From a virus, in IMG/VR virus record IMGVR_UViG_3300032298_001038, positions 32,001 through 96,000 of that record: DNA of 64,000 bases, one strand, 5' to 3'. Shown here piece after piece: positions 32,936 to 35,763 of the stretch. The position numbers and the translations under genes are program-made. The notes under the pieces are model-generated. The model was not told the DNA's origin, made no database searches, and saw only the letters and a list, made by a program, of their open reading frames with translations. Positions within the stretch are counted from its first letter, which is position 1, and each line of letters starts with the position of its first letter.

Positions 32936-32976
32936 AAAAAACCGGGGCGGGTAGATTGTTGCCTACCCGCCCCGGT
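32936..32976 (-). terminator. Rho-independent terminator closing the repeat-array transcript
   Basis: 14-bp stem ACCGGGGCGGGTAG/CTACCCGCCCCGGT followed by a T run on the minus strand. Confidence 0.85.
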
Positions 32977-32979
32977 CGC

Positions 32980-33703
32980 AGTTTGCCAATGCATGCCTCG
33001 CCGGAACAAGCCTCATCAGGCATCGCCCAGCCTGTCCAAGCCTGCCGCGGATAGCCGAACCACTCCCGGCCTCTCCTCGCCCTGCCTAACCCTGCCTGCC
33101 GAACCGAGCCTGACCCTGCCTCGCGGAGTCAAGCCCTGCCGTGCCTGCCGTGTCTATGCCTCTGCCCGCCGGTCCCGGCCACTCCCGGCCAAGCCCAGCC
33201 TCGCCTGCCGTGTCTATCCCGGCCGGGGCGCTCCCGGCCTTGCCATACCTCGCCTGCCGAGCCTATCTGGCCGCGTCGAGACGAGCCGTGCCTAACCATG
33301 CCTGCCATCCCGCGCCCGTCATACCGCGCCTTGCCACGCCTGTCCGAGCCTGCCGTGTCTAAGCGACACCGATCCTCACCAAAGCATGCCGTGCCTTGCT
33401 CTGCCTGCCTCGCCATGTCGCTGCTCGCGCGTCCACGCCGTGCCTTACCCAGCCTGCCGGTCCAAACCGAACCTTGGCTATCCACACCTCACCGCTCGTC
33501 GCCCCGCCTCGCCGTGCCATGCCTGCCCAGCCCTGTCAAGCCGAGCCATGCCTAGGCATGCCGAACCGAACCGCGTCCAGTCCAAGCCTGCCGCGTCGTG
33601 CCTAGCCGAACCTAGCGTTGCCCTACCAAGCCTGCCGTGTCTATGCAGTTGCAAGCCAATTCTTGCCCATCCCGGCCACGCCTAACCCAGCCTGCCGTGT
33701 CTA
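32980..33703 (-). repeat. Non-coding array of 13 units of tandem NN-GGY pentamers delimited by GGCAGGC (candidate guide-RNA array, VIPR-like)
   Basis: GCCTGCC on plus at 33040, 33094, 33143, 33203, 33252, 33300, 33348, 33403, 33452, 33521, 33586, 33630, 33690; five preceded on minus by TAGACAC; 5-nt periodicity within units. Confidence 0.88.
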
Positions 33704-33721
33704 AATGCTCAGGCTCGATGC

Positions 33722-34207
33722 TCAGGCTCGCGCCACGCGCCGATTGCGCCGGCGTGTGGCGTTGCGGGCTACACGATCCAAAGCAGCGAACACAGGCGTC
33801 AACTCGCGCAGCGATTCGTACTTGCGTCGAACTCGCTGCAACTCGTCAATCGCCTGCTGCAACAACTGTGCGCGCATTTCGGCACTGCTCATCACGTCGG
33901 TGAGTGCACGATAGCCACCACCGCCGCTTTTGCGATCCGAAACGAGCGACACGAACATCGGCATACGAACACTGCCGTTCGGCGTGTCGAGTACTTCGAT
34001 GTTCAACCGGATGATCTTCCTCGCCTGCTCCAATCGAAACTGGTGCGCGGCTTCGGTGTCATCCCATTCAAACTCTGCGTGGAGCGCAGTGTTTTCATCA
34101 CGAGCAAACTCCACAACCGCTTCGGGCGGAACGCGGCCGTCGTGCTCGTTGTAAATCTGCGTCAGTTCTTCCTTGATGGAAGAGATTGCTCTACGGCGTC
34201 TCGCCAT
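33722..34207 (-). CDS. Accessory protein of the Cas7-like/pentamer-array locus, function unknown
   Basis: 161 aa, LHAEFEWDDTEAAHQFRLEQARKIIR motif; lies between the RAMP-like gene and the array. Confidence 0.8.
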   Translation of the reverse strand: MARRRRAISSIKEELTQIYNEHDGRVPPEAVVEFARDENTALHAEFEWDDTEAAHQFRLEQARKIIRLNIEVLDTPNGSVRMPMFVSLVSDRKSGGGGYRALTDVMSSAEMRAQLLQQAIDELQRVRRKYESLRELTPVFAALDRVARNATRRRNRRVARA

Positions 34208-34224: not shown

Positions 34225-35028
34225 TCAACCCTTCACACACTCGAAATGACCCCAGCCCATACCGCACGAGTTGGGCGAGTCAGCGCGGCCTTCGCCGACG
34301 CCGACCTGCATCCCGGCACGCAGCATGAGGTTGGCGATGTCAGCCGGCGTAAACATGTCGGCGTCGAAGCGCACGCGAACCTTGGCCCGCCACGATTCAA
34401 ACATGGCGCGCACACGAATATCAGCGACGCCGGTCGCATTGCGCACCGTGTGCTCGACGTGCTTCGGCTTGGCGTCCACCAACTTGCCCTTGCCATCCGC
34501 GTACAGATGAATCAGCGGCGTACCCTCGACAGCATCGAAGCCGTCGGCCTCGACGAAGATGGCCTTCTTCGCCTTGGTCTTGTGATAACCCACGACCACG
34601 CAGGAGTCAACCAGCGCGTTTCGCAGGGCACTTGCCGGGATGCCACACCAACCCTTGGTCGAGCGGTGCTGGGCTTCCTTGAAGTTCGCCTCGAAGTCCT
34701 TGGCCTCGCGCTTCTTGCCCTTGGAAGCCGTGGAGCCGGCGGCCTGCTTCTCGCGCATCATCTCGCGTGCCTTCTTGCCGAACGCCAACTGCACGTACGG
34801 CGCCGTGCCGCGGATCACGATCTCCACAGTCTTGAAGTTGGGCGCGGTGATCGTCACGCCCAGCCTTTCGGCGACGGCGATATCGATCTTATTACTCGGG
34901 TCAAGGTGAGTTTCAACGATATCTTTTACGCGCTTACGAAACACGCCATCTTCAATCTTGGATGACTTGGATTGCGCGGTCTTAGTCTTGGTCGCCGTTT
35001 TCTTCGAACCCTTGAGCATCGTTGCCAT
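34225..35028 (-). CDS. Stand-alone Cas7/RAMP-like protein (Vipr-like)
   Basis: beta1 TVEIVIRGTAPY, GIPASALRNAL (cf. RAMP IPGSSLKGAL), WRAKVRVRF, C-terminal G-loop LMLRAGMQVGVGEGR...GMGWGHF. Confidence 0.82.
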   Translation of the reverse strand: MATMLKGSKKTATKTKTAQSKSSKIEDGVFRKRVKDIVETHLDPSNKIDIAVAERLGVTITAPNFKTVEIVIRGTAPYVQLAFGKKAREMMREKQAAGSTASKGKKREAKDFEANFKEAQHRSTKGWCGIPASALRNALVDSCVVVGYHKTKAKKAIFVEADGFDAVEGTPLIHLYADGKGKLVDAKPKHVEHTVRNATGVADIRVRAMFESWRAKVRVRFDADMFTPADIANLMLRAGMQVGVGEGRADSPNSCGMGWGHFECVKG

Positions 35029-35042
35029 GTCTATTCCTTGGT

Positions 35043-35077
35043 AAAAGAAAAACCCACGGCGAAAGTGCCGTGGGTTT
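35043..35077 (-). terminator. Rho-independent terminator ending the tRNA/tmRNA cluster
   Basis: 11-bp stem AAACCCACGGC/GCCGTGGGTTT, T-rich tract on the minus strand. Confidence 0.8.
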
Positions 35078-35243: not shown

Positions 35244-35248
35244 ATAAG

Positions 35249-35602
35249 TGGAGCCGGCGGGAATCGAACCCGCGTCCAGAAACGTTTCCAGTAAGAACGT
35301 CTACATGCGTAGCCAGTTATGTGTCACCAACTGGCAATGCTATCCGCACACTTAGCGGAGTCAGGCGGTTTACCGCCATCTCGCCCGATTACTTTGCCGG
35401 ACCGACGCAGGTGGCTTACCACCATCAACCTGATTGGGCAATGAGGCTCAGGTCGCCCCACTCGCGGTCCTGACTAGGTCAGGCAGCGAGGGCCGGAGCA
35501 GAAGCGCCGGTTAGAAACTTAATCGGCTTTTAACGTGGCCAACCGATCAACCACGGCATGCAATCCAAACCTTCTCCGTCCTGTCGATACCAGTACGGCC
35601 CC
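35249..35602 (-). ncRNA. ssrA: tmRNA
   Basis: 5' GGGGCCG..GGTATCGAC, 3' GCGGGTTCGATTCCCGCCGGCTCCA, G3-U70 pair; tag ORF (A)GASAPALAA* at 35508-35479. Confidence 0.93.
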
Positions 35603-35604
35603 AA

Positions 35605-35678
35605 TAGCGCGGGTGGGATTCGAACCCACAACCTATTGATTTTGAGTCAATCGCCTCTGCCAGTTGGGCTACCACGCC
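35605..35678 (-). tRNA. trnL: tRNA-Leu(CAA), short variable arm
   Basis: GGCGTGG...ATTGA CTCAAAA TCAAT AGGTT GTGGG TTCGAAT CCCAC CCGCGCT A. Confidence 0.88.
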
Positions 35679-35690
35679 AAACTATACCAC

Positions 35691-35763
35691 TGACCCCACG
35701 GGGATTCGAACCCCGGTAAACGGAACGAAAATCCGTTGTCCTAGGCCACTAGACGATGGGGCC
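35691..35763 (-). tRNA. trnE: tRNA-Glu(TTC)
   Basis: GGCCCCA...ACGGA TTTTCGT TCCGT...CGGGG TTCGAAT CCCCG TGGGGTC A. Confidence 0.92.

What the first reader, a model, noticed from the sequence alone, without database searches (positions are those of the whole stretch)
32980..33703. Grammar of the array: 13 units delimited by GGCAGGC, constant GGY with hypervariable NN
Seen on the minus strand: 13 copies of GGCAGGC (a 4-nt step that resets the 5-nt phase), five preceded by TAGACAC. Unit spacings are 60,44,65,69,49,55,48,48,49,60,49,54; six equal exactly 4+5n. Between delimiters the sequence reads NN-GG(C/T/A). NN strings of the in-phase units: 33630 TT-AG-AA-TA-TC-TA-AC-GC; 33521 AT-AC-GA-GG-GA-GC-GA-GT-TA-AA-TC-TT-CC; 33452 TG-AA-AC-GT-CG-GA-GC-AT-GA; 33252 GA-AT-AA-CG-GC-CC-CG-TA-AC; 33143 AC-AG-TT-TC-GA-AG-CA-TC-TC; 33094 AG-TA-AG-GA-GA-CG-GT-TC-TA-GC. 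Every unit has a different string, so this is not simple slippage. NN=CG is followed by GGA in 7 of 8 cases. Inference: each unit is a separate guide, with GGCAGGC/TAGACAC as a processing or filament-start signal. If a target base is skipped after each NN, guides could ignore codon wobble positions.
Basis: partly seen in the sequence, partly recalled or inferred. Interest (0 to 1): 0.88.

Follow-up and report, generated by a model that had tools for sequence, protein, structure and literature searches.

The report
Phage VIPR guide-RNA array (staggered type)

Summary
On the minus strand, 32978-33703 carries 13 GGCAGGC delimiters, five of them preceded by TAGACAC, at exactly the spacings listed. 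Between them runs a strong 5-nt GG periodicity (z about 10).

It is the guide array of a VIPR system (bioRxiv 10.64898/2026.04.26.720920). The gene two ORFs upstream (34225-35028, minus) encodes a Vipr protein. Its model has a Cas7-like RAMP fold (Z 10.1), an invariant glycine-rich loop, and detectable homology to the tested phiSUSP1 Vipr. The gene between (33722-34207, minus) is a tightly linked accessory protein.

An IMG/VR scan with the DNA pattern alone returned at least 120 phage contigs; 89 carry this Vipr and 84 the accessory gene. Across 807 junctions the unit length is quantised at 4+5n. This fits the "staggered array" architecture of the preprint.

Shared units are 96-100% identical between related phages whose vipr/vap genes are only 79-90% identical. 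Substitutions avoid the NN positions. Other units are swapped out whole. Each unit therefore behaves as a separate, selected guide.

I could not identify targets: exact 1-nt-skip matches occurred at chance frequency. TAGACAC and the CG-then-GGA rule are local quirks, not family grammar.

This scan already classified a similar array on another genome as VIPR. Verdict: a new member of a known kind.

The parts
34225..35028 (-). vipr gene: 267-aa Vipr protein (minimal Cas7-like RAMP). Residues about 62-267 form the core and 1-60 are a lineage-specific N-terminal extension.
   Evidence: AF2 model: pLDDT 78, core mostly above 90. All 32 Foldseek PDB rows shown are CRISPR RAMPs (Csm3, Cmr4, type VII Cas7, Cas7-11), best E 5.5e-6, probability 1.0. 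VIA-align gives Z 10.1 to 9g9a_D and 6s6b_I, and 38 of the first 38 rows are RAMPs. The G-loop QVG-GEGR...G-G is invariant. An HMM of the homologs hits phiSUSP1 Vipr at E 1.5e-7; BLASTP gives 5e-5. Matches phrog_4652.
33722..34207 (-). vap-like accessory gene: 161-aa protein (phrog_15946). Possibly winged-helix-like plus a C-terminal helical hairpin.
   Evidence: An HMM of its homologs finds it beside the array in 84 of 120 loci retrieved by DNA pattern alone, and in 48 of 52 loci retrieved via Vipr. AF2 pLDDT 90.5. Fold matches are only weak, to MarR/MecI/FoxO-type winged helices at E 0.4-2. No detectable homology to phiSUSP1 vap1.
32978..33703 (-). Staggered vrRNA array: 13 units of GGCA + n x GGYNN.
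   Evidence: No Rfam family matches. Gene callers leave the same region uncalled on 3 of 4 related contigs.
33637..33696 (-). Unit U1 (60 nt). The 3' end is degenerate and ends in TAGACAC. No counterpart in four relatives.
33593..33636 (-). Unit U2 (44 nt; NN = TT AG AA TA TC TA AC GC). Shared with L197 (42/44) and L009 (40/44).
33528..33592 (-). Unit U3 (65 nt; one extra base after the third pentamer breaks the phase). Partly shared with L009.
33459..33527 (-). Unit U4 (69 nt, 13 pentamers). The first 10 NN are conserved in L009 and the last 3 differ.
33410..33458 (-). Unit U5 (49 nt). Identical in L009 (49/49); 44/49 in L194.
33355..33409 (-). Unit U6 (55 nt, ends in TAGACAC). 54/55 in both L009 and L194.
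33307..33354 (-). Unit U7 (48 nt). No counterpart in relatives; L009 has a different unit at this position.
33259..33306 (-). Unit U8 (48 nt). 43/48 in L009.
33210..33258 (-). Unit U9 (49 nt; contains the hairpin GGCCGGG-AGCGC-CCCGGCC and ends in TAGACAC). 47-48/49 in L009, L194 and L197.
33150..33209 (-). Unit U10 (60 nt, ends in TAGACAC). 59/60 in L197.
33101..33149 (-). Unit U11 (49 nt). No counterpart in relatives.
33047..33100 (-). Unit U12 (54 nt, 9 canonical pentamers). 46/54 in L009 and 45/54 in L197.
32978..33046 (-). Unit U13 (last unit; it degenerates towards the terminator). 35/41 in L195.
32940..32977 (-). Intrinsic terminator closing the vipr-vap-array unit (16-bp stem followed by a T run).
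   Evidence: sequence
35050..35077 (-). Intrinsic terminator upstream of vipr. It separates the locus from the tmRNA/tRNA cluster.

Best explanation
The region is the guide-RNA (vrRNA) array of a phage-borne VIPR system of the 'staggered array' architecture.

Inferred steps:
- The operon vipr (34225-35028) - vap-like (33722-34207) - array (32978-33703) is transcribed on the minus strand and ends at the terminator at 32940-32977.
- Vipr, a minimal Cas7-like RAMP, polymerises along the RNA with one protomer per GGYNN repeat. It buries each GGY and presents each NN. This is by homology to phiSUSP1 Vipr, for which it was shown by cryo-EM (bioRxiv 10.64898/2026.04.26.720927).
- Each stretch between two GGCAGGC junctions is one guide of about 8-14 repeats.
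- The 4-nt GGCA step breaks the 5-nt register and so marks where one guide ends and the next begins.
- The NN string pairs with double-stranded DNA while skipping every third target base, the codon wobble position. This silences genes of competing phages, satellites or prophages.

Shown here:
- The anatomy of the array.
- The RAMP fold and glycine-rich loop of Vipr.
- The family-wide linkage of array, vipr and vap.
- The quantised unit length.
- Unit-wise turnover between related phages.
- Selection on the NN positions.

Not shown here:
- RNA processing.
- The skip rule in this clade.
- The identity of the targets.
For: (1) Literature. VIPR is defined as a Vipr RAMP plus vrRNAs of 9-16 YNNGG repeats, with NN read under a 1-nt skip. 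Staggered arrays are described as vrRNAs from '1 nt overlapping positions'.
(2) Protein. The 267-aa protein models as a RAMP: Foldseek E 5.5e-6, VIA Z 10.1, with hit lists almost entirely Cas7/Csm3/Cmr4. It aligns to phiSUSP1 Vipr so that R207=R138, E246=D177 and R248=R179, which are residues the structure paper reports as contacting GGY. These positions are invariant in 36 homologs.
(3) Same locus order. I read the phiSUSP1 locus directly (KT454805 27.5-29.5 kb); it has the same order, vipr-vap-array.
(4) Linkage. The pattern GGCAGGC(NNGGC)x4 alone retrieved at least 120 IMG/VR contigs; 89 carry Vipr, 84 Vap and 77 both. Conversely, of 52 genome loci found through Vipr, 46 have the array and 48 have Vap. 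Of 115 arrays near vipr, 113 lie on its coding strand.
(5) Grammar. At 807 family junctions, spacing falls at 39/44/49/54/59/64/69/74 nt. G is 0.8-0.9 at positions 1-2, C 0.65-0.8 at position 3, and the NN positions are near-uniform.
(6) Guides are individually selected. Shared units are 96-100% identical to those in relatives whose vipr is 82-90% and vap 79-87% identical, while U1, U7 and U11 have no counterpart. In shared units only 3 of 243 NN positions differ, against 20 of 381 GGY positions (Fisher p 0.0085); 10 of the 20 are at Y.
(7) No self-target. No match in the phage's own 198-kb genome exceeds shuffled guides, as the preprint reports for VIPR.
(8) Codon-like NN usage. NN usage in 350 family guides correlates best with codon positions 1-2 (r 0.51, against 0.12 and -0.18 for the other registers).
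Against: - No target was found. Six guides scanned as exact 1-nt-skip patterns gave 0, 0, 2, 1, 1 and 0 IMG/VR hits, and one gave 1 metagenome hit. That is about what chance gives for 18-20 specified bases. No two guides converge on one contig.
- The window's own array is untidy. Only 6 of 12 spacings are in phase and many pentamers are degenerate, so some units may be decaying.
- The preprint states that staggered arrays, unlike two other architectures, were not confirmed by small-RNA sequencing.
- W178 of phiSUSP1 Vipr, which stacks on G2, is an invariant Gly here.
- The accessory protein shows no detectable homology to phiSUSP1 vap1.
Confidence: 0.9

Rival explanations
1. The array is a non-guiding scaffold or sponge RNA. 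It simply nucleates or titrates Vipr (or a host GG-binding protein, as CsrB does for CsrA or the GAG repeats do for TRAP), and the NN positions carry no information.
For: The periodic GG motif with free spacers resembles protein-sponge RNAs. No target was found.
Against: NN positions are the most conserved positions within shared units: 3 of 243 changed, against 20 of 381 in GGY. Whole units are 96-100% identical while the flanking genes are 79-90% identical. The homologous phiSUSP1 system is experimentally programmable through NN.
Confidence: 0.05
2. The repeat acts at the DNA level, for example as a binding array for the 161-aa winged-helix-like protein (origin, partition or packaging site) or as a G-quadruplex-prone (G2N3)n tract, and not as RNA.
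For: Strong G/C strand asymmetry (GC skew -0.24 in this kilobase). The accessory protein has weak resemblance to DNA-binding folds.
Against: 113 of 115 arrays have the G-rich strand on the coding strand of vipr. The unit is bracketed by terminators. The partner protein is an RNA-binding RAMP. vrRNAs of the homologous system are expressed and co-purify with Vipr. A 5-bp period with 4-bp resets fits no B-DNA helical repeat.
Confidence: 0.03
3. The region is translated into a low-complexity Gly/Ala/Arg-rich peptide.
For: Open frames exist, e.g. 33129-33485 minus, 118 aa. One gene caller called a 120-aa ORF on the related contig L194.
Against: A 5-nt period is incompatible with a reading frame. 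Relatives differ by whole-unit swaps and by indels that are not multiples of three. Gene callers leave the region empty on L193, L195 and L197. Substitutions follow the GGY/NN pattern, not codon positions.
Confidence: 0.01

Closest known systems
VIPR systems with staggered vrRNA arrays (bioRxiv 10.64898/2026.04.26.720920, fig. S18)
   Same: A Vipr RAMP gene, one accessory gene and flanking GGY/NN pentamer arrays. The units abut one another, with a one-base register shift at each boundary. The system is phage-encoded and has no cas genes or CRISPR repeats.
   Different: I could read only the figure legend, so the VIPR type number (I-VII) of this clade is not assigned. The window's array is more degenerate than the family norm and carries a local TAGACAC element at 5 junctions.
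Type II VIPR of Escherichia phage phiSUSP1 (KT454805; experimentally characterised)
   Same: Gene order vipr-vap-array. Homologous Vipr: HMM E 1.5e-7, shared thumb Arg and G-loop (D/E)-x-R. GGYNN repeats with about 9-16 repeats per guide.
   Different: In phiSUSP1 each vrRNA is a separate unit of about 100 nt, with flanks and a conserved structured 3' tail, and Y is mostly T. Here there is no tail, units are contiguous, and Y is mostly C. Vipr here has a 60-aa N-terminal extension and Gly in place of W178. The accessory proteins are not detectably homologous.
Class 1 CRISPR-Cas backbone (Cas7/Csm3/Cmr4 filament on crRNA)
   Same: RAMP fold, glycine-rich loop, one protomer per fixed RNA step, periodic unpaired bases, and arrays of many different guides with unit-wise turnover.
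   Different: There are no identical repeats separating spacers, no Cas1/Cas2 or other cas genes, and no Cas6. The step is 5 nt with 3 buried bases, rather than 6 nt with 1 flipped base. The guide information is non-contiguous.
TRAP-binding (G/U)AG-NN repeats and CsrB/RsmZ GGA sponge RNAs
   Same: A short conserved purine motif repeated at about 5-nt spacing with free spacers, read by an oligomeric protein.
   Different: Those RNAs titrate a regulator and their spacers carry no information. Here the spacers are the conserved, selected part, and the partner is a RAMP. This is a resemblance in form only.

Membership tests
VIPR system | Vipr protein: a minimal RAMP (RRM core, glycine-rich loop, thumb) outside any CRISPR-cas locus. 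| tested here: met
   Fold matches to Cas7-family RAMPs (Foldseek E 5.5e-6; VIA Z 10.1 over 152 residues, rmsd 3.4-3.8). Invariant C-terminal G-loop. Profile hit to phiSUSP1 Vipr at E 1.5e-7. The ORFs I screened beside the locus matched no Cas family: nine neighbouring ORFs, with vap, were run against Pfam and PHROGs.
VIPR system | vrRNA: tandem pentamers with conserved GGY and variable NN, about 9-16 repeats per guide. | tested here: met
   Lag-5 z 9.8. Third base is C or T in 63 of 80 pentamers. Family logo and unit lengths of 39-74 nt, i.e. 8-15 GG motifs.
VIPR system | Minimal locus: vipr plus one vap gene flanked by non-coding arrays, mostly on phages. | tested here: met
   The order vipr-vap-array lies between two terminators on a complete 198-kb DTR phage record. 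The linkage recurs in 77 of 120 and 46-48 of 52 independent loci.
VIPR system | GGY-contacting residues of Vipr (phiSUSP1 R138, D177, W178, R179). | tested here: inconclusive
   R207=R138, E246=D177 and R248=R179 are invariant, but W178 corresponds to an invariant Gly247.
VIPR system | vrRNAs are expressed as discrete small RNAs and co-purify with Vipr. | not testable with these tools
VIPR system | NN strings match natural DNA targets under the 1-nt skip rule, with the skip at codon wobble. | tested here: inconclusive
   Exact-match counts are at chance and there is no convergence. All 5 exact hits do place the skip at the wobble position of the likely gene. NN usage tracks codon positions 1-2.
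VIPR system | No self-targeting of the source genome. | tested here: met
   With the array masked, the best own-genome matches equal those of shuffled guides at every skip length.
VIPR staggered-array architecture | Adjacent vrRNAs share a boundary with a one-base register overlap, and there are no tails or ribozymes between units. | tested here: met
   There is a 4-nt GGCA step at every junction. Family spacing is 4+5n at the large majority of 807 junctions. There is no Rfam hammerhead or other hit in the array. The architecture is known to me only from a figure legend.
CRISPR array | Identical direct repeats of about 23-50 nt separating unique spacers, with cas1/cas2 nearby. | tested here: not met
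   There are no long identical repeats. Ten ORFs around the locus, vipr and vap among them, matched no Cas family in Pfam or PHROGs.

The most novel reading that the evidence does not exclude
In staggered arrays the Vipr filament may itself measure out the guides. On this reading the 4-nt GGCA step is a register break that ends one filament and seeds the next. One long transcript would then be partitioned into 8-14-repeat guides without a dedicated nuclease, tail or ribozyme. The uniform GGC scaffold would also let phages exchange whole guides as cassettes by homologous recombination, which would amount to a Cas1-free form of spacer turnover.
Probability: 0.3. Interest if true: 0.6.

Novelty: new member of a known kind. 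Interest (0 to 1): 0.35.

Why it matters
The finding itself is explained by work published in 2026, so it does not open a new category. Its value is confirmatory and incremental, in four respects.
- A reader with no tools recovered the VIPR code from raw sequence.
- This clade is very common in uncultivated phages: at least 120 IMG/VR contigs and 52 loci in bacterial assemblies, most of them metagenome-assembled bins, across many phyla.
- Comparison of related phages gives evolutionary evidence, independent of the preprint's experiments, that NN is the selected, information-bearing part and that guides turn over as whole units.
- The same clade sits in cultured Mycobacterium and Gordonia phages. 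There the staggered architecture, which the preprint did not verify by RNA sequencing, could be tested directly.

Tried and rejected
- Rfam at gathering and permissive thresholds: nothing in the array.
- First role assignment was wrong. I initially took the 161-aa protein for the RNA-binding partner, because it is the array's neighbour. Its fold (helical, weak winged-helix hits) and a direct reading of the phiSUSP1 locus showed that the RAMP is the next gene upstream.
- TRAP-like ring, CsrB-like sponge, G-quadruplex, origin/pac-site and type III toxin-antitoxin RNA were considered before the literature hit. I dropped them for the reasons given under rival explanations.
- Target search. Exact 1-nt-skip scans of IMG/VR for U4, U12, U5, U9, U6 and U10, and of the metagenome collection for U4, gave 5 hits in all, about the number expected by chance. 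The hits are on unrelated contigs, and no second guide matches any of them.
- A family-level test (293 guides against 2.4 Mb of local loci, skips 0-3) showed no excess at skip 1. The database is too small to say anything.
- Vipr-Vap complex prediction returned no verdict.
- Apparent Vipr-Vap fusion in Mycobacterium phage Gorge gp54. This proved to be a frameshifted vipr read through into vap, not a fusion.
- No supplementary files of the preprint are held, so the VIPR type number could not be assigned.

Full report
**Observation**

Read on the minus strand, window 32978-33703 is a non-coding stretch. It lies between the stop codon of a 161-aa ORF (33722) and a strong intrinsic terminator at 32940-32977.

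- There are 13 GGCAGGC here, against 18 on the minus strand and 3 on the plus strand of the whole window.
- Five are preceded by TAGACAC.
- The spacings are 60,44,65,69,49,55,48,48,49,60,49,54, and six equal 4+5n.

GG dinucleotides recur at lag 5 with z 9.8, and at lags 10, 15 and 20 with z 8.3 to 6.3. They are depleted at the lags in between. The third base is C or T in 63 of 80 pentamers, and the two following bases are close to uniform. No unit repeats another, and Tandem Repeats Finder finds nothing beyond three short two-copy repeats of 9-14 bases. Rfam has no match.

**Context**

The window is part of a complete 198-kb phage record with direct terminal repeats. All neighbouring genes lie on the minus strand. 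A tmRNA and two tRNAs lie about 1.5 kb upstream.

Two ORFs precede the array:
- 34225-35028: 267 aa, phrog_4652.
- 33722-34207: 161 aa, phrog_15946.

Neither has a Pfam hit. A terminator at 35050-35077 separates them from the RNA-gene cluster. The three parts therefore look like one transcription unit.

**Linkage across phages**

I searched with the 161-aa protein first. All five related IMG/VR loci carried a period-5 GG array next to the gene.

I then searched the other way, with the bare DNA pattern GGCAGGC(NNGGC)x4.
- Profiles of the two proteins then hit 89 (267-aa) and 84 (161-aa) of those 120 loci, and both in 77. Most of the rest are cut by contig ends.
- A third search started from the 267-aa protein in bacterial and archaeal assemblies. 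It gave 52 loci, of which 46 have the array and 48 the 161-aa gene.
- Of 115 arrays within 2.5 kb of the 267-aa gene, 113 have their G-rich strand on its coding strand. Ninety-five lie downstream and 18 upstream.

This is a conserved three-part module whose non-coding part is co-oriented with the genes.

**Identification**

A literature search on the pentanucleotide theme found bioRxiv 10.64898/2026.04.26.720920. It describes VIPR systems as follows:
- A phage-borne minimal RAMP protein, Vipr, works with vrRNAs of 9-16 YNNGG repeats.
- GGY is conserved scaffold and NN is variable.
- The NN string pairs with double-stranded DNA while skipping one target base per repeat, usually the codon wobble position.
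- The system silences competing phages, satellites and prophages.

A companion structure paper shows one Vipr protomer per repeat in a right-handed filament. GGY is buried and NN is presented for pairing. A third paper shows the biology in phiSUSP1.

I read the phiSUSP1 locus directly from KT454805. It has the order vipr (195 aa) - vap1 (146 aa) - GGTNN arrays, the same order as here.

**Membership tests**

*Vipr.* The 267-aa protein, not the array's immediate neighbour, is the Vipr.
- Its AlphaFold model (core pLDDT mostly above 90) matches CRISPR RAMPs almost exclusively.
- All 32 Foldseek rows shown are Csm3, Cmr4, type VII Cas7 or Cas7-11 chains, best E 5.5e-6.
- An independent all-against-representatives alignment gives Z 10.1 over 152 residues, and the first 38 rows are all RAMPs.
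- The C-terminal glycine-rich loop is invariant in 36 homologs.
- A profile of the homologs hits phiSUSP1 Vipr at E 1.5e-7.
- The pairwise alignment places R207, E246 and R248 on R138, D177 and R179, three of the residues reported to hold the GGY bases. W178 corresponds to an invariant glycine here, which is a real difference.

*Accessory protein.* The 161-aa protein folds confidently (pLDDT 90.5). It gives only weak winged-helix-type matches plus a helical hairpin. It has no detectable similarity to phiSUSP1 vap1. I treat it as this clade's accessory (vap-like) gene on the strength of its linkage.

**Grammar of the array**

Across 153 arrays and 807 GGCAGGC junctions, the distance between junctions is sharply quantised. 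The counts are 64, 98, 103, 104, 43, 38, 15 and 12 at 39, 44, 49, 54, 59, 64, 69 and 74 nt. That is GGCA plus 7-14 pentamers.

The logo around junctions is G 0.8-0.9, G 0.8-0.9, C 0.65-0.8, then two near-uniform positions. It continues in one register up to the junction and in a register shifted by one base after it.

[quoted passage not shown] The preprint adds that two other architectures were confirmed by small-RNA sequencing. By implication the staggered one was not.

- TAGACAC occurs in this phage, and as TAGACAY in its close relative L009. At other family junctions those positions hold an ordinary GGCNN unit.
- CG followed by GGA reflects a recurring GGCCGGGA 8-mer here. Family-wide, only 8% of CG are followed by GGA.

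**Are the units separate, functional guides?**

I compared the array with those of four relatives: L009, L194, L195 and L197.
- Units U2, U5, U6, U9 and U10 recur at 96-100% identity (49/49, 54/55, 48/49, 59/60, 42/44).
- U4, U8, U12 and U13 recur in part.
- U1, U7 and U11 have no counterpart. At the position of U7, L009 carries a different unit on the same scaffold.
- The adjacent vipr and vap genes are only 82-90% and 79-87% identical at the nucleotide level.
- Within shared units, 3 of 243 NN positions differ against 20 of 381 GGY positions (Fisher p 0.0085). Half of the scaffold changes are at the Y position. The comparisons are not fully independent, because some changes are shared by two relatives.

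So NN is variable between guides but is the best-conserved part within a guide. Guides are gained and lost as whole units. This is what a guide array predicts. Slippage, a sponge RNA or a coding region would not predict it.

**Targets**

This part failed.
- With the array masked, no guide matches the phage's own genome better than shuffled guides at skip 0, 1, 2 or 3. That agrees with the reported absence of self-targeting.
- Exact 1-nt-skip patterns were scanned against IMG/VR. The hit counts were U4 (10 NN) 0, U12 0, U5 2, U9 1, U6 1 and U10 0. U4 gave 1 hit in the metagenome collection. By my estimate of collection size, that is what 18-20 specified bases give by chance.
- The hits lie on unrelated contigs, and no other guide scores above shuffles on any of them.
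- Two weak hints favour the skip rule. All five hits place the skipped base at the wobble position of the likely gene. NN usage in 350 family guides correlates with codon positions 1-2 (r 0.51), but not with positions 2-3 (0.12) or 3-1 (-0.18). The second hint could itself produce the first, so I count them as one.
- A family-wide test on the 2.4 Mb held locally was uninformative.

**Host and distribution**

The nearest Vipr relatives in assemblies (71% and 61% identity) are on contigs binned to Planctomycetota from lakes. Others are binned to Phycisphaerae, Verrucomicrobiota, Bradyrhizobium, cyanobacteria and more. Binning of phage contigs is unreliable, so the host remains a guess.

The same clade is present in cultured actinophages. 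In those records the array is either unannotated or called as a hypothetical protein.

**Verdict**

The locus is a new member of a known kind.

What goes beyond the preprint text I could read:
- the junction statistics;
- the evolutionary evidence for selection on NN and for cassette-like turnover;
- the tight linkage of the phrog_15946 accessory protein;
- the pointer to cultured carriers.

An earlier follow-up in this scan reached the same classification for a similar array on another phage genome.

Noticed in passing
L014 (Mycobacterium phage Gorge NC_051664) 1470-1720 and 1709-2926: The annotated gene 53 ('hypothetical protein') lies inside a staggered GGCAGGC/GGCNN array. The annotated 405-aa gp54 is not a single protein: its N-terminus matches Vipr positions 14-137, then the Vipr frame shifts (the C-terminal half is at 2223-2453 in another frame), and the ORF runs on into the vap-like domain. 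So vipr looks frameshifted in this phage.
   Followed up: partly
L016 (Gordonia phage UmaThurman NC_031249) 2150-2490; L015 (Gordonia phage ODay MW534375) 2300-2480: UmaThurman gene 40 ('hypothetical protein') coincides with a vrRNA array lying between a Vipr homolog (gp39) and a vap-like gene (gp41). ODay has the array in the unannotated gap between gp19 (Vipr) and gp20 (vap-like). Both are cultured phages that carry this VIPR clade.
   Followed up: partly
window 35027-35037 (minus strand): The motif TAGACAYGGCA that precedes five array units also spans the vipr start codon (aaggaaTAGACATGGCAacg). In relative L009 three junctions read TAGACATGGCAGGC. This may be coincidence or a shared leader element.
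   Followed up: no
window 33705-33730: There are two exact tandem copies of a 13-mer (ATGCTCAGGCTCG on the plus strand). They overlap the vap stop codon and end immediately before the first TAGACAC of the array.
   Followed up: no
L199 14551-14576 (IMGVR_UViG_3300033149_007212): Guide U9 read as codons (GAx ATx AAx CGx GCx CCx CGx TAx ACx) matches exactly, in frame, the ...DEINRAPRYT stretch of an AAA+ ATPase gene on an unrelated viral contig. A single hit is within chance expectation. Still, a guide aimed at a conserved motif is what the wobble-skip logic would favour.
   Followed up: partly
window 35246-35763, and 38491, 39493, 40214, 9597: The phage carries a full-length tmRNA (125.6 bits) directly followed by two tRNAs, plus four more tRNAs elsewhere in the window.
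   Followed up: no
window 33160-33250 and 33060-33080 (minus strand): The 8-mer GGCCGGGA recurs six times (in U1, U9 twice, U10 twice and U12). U9 contains a 7-bp hairpin, GGCCGGG-AGCGC-CCCGGCC.
   Followed up: yes
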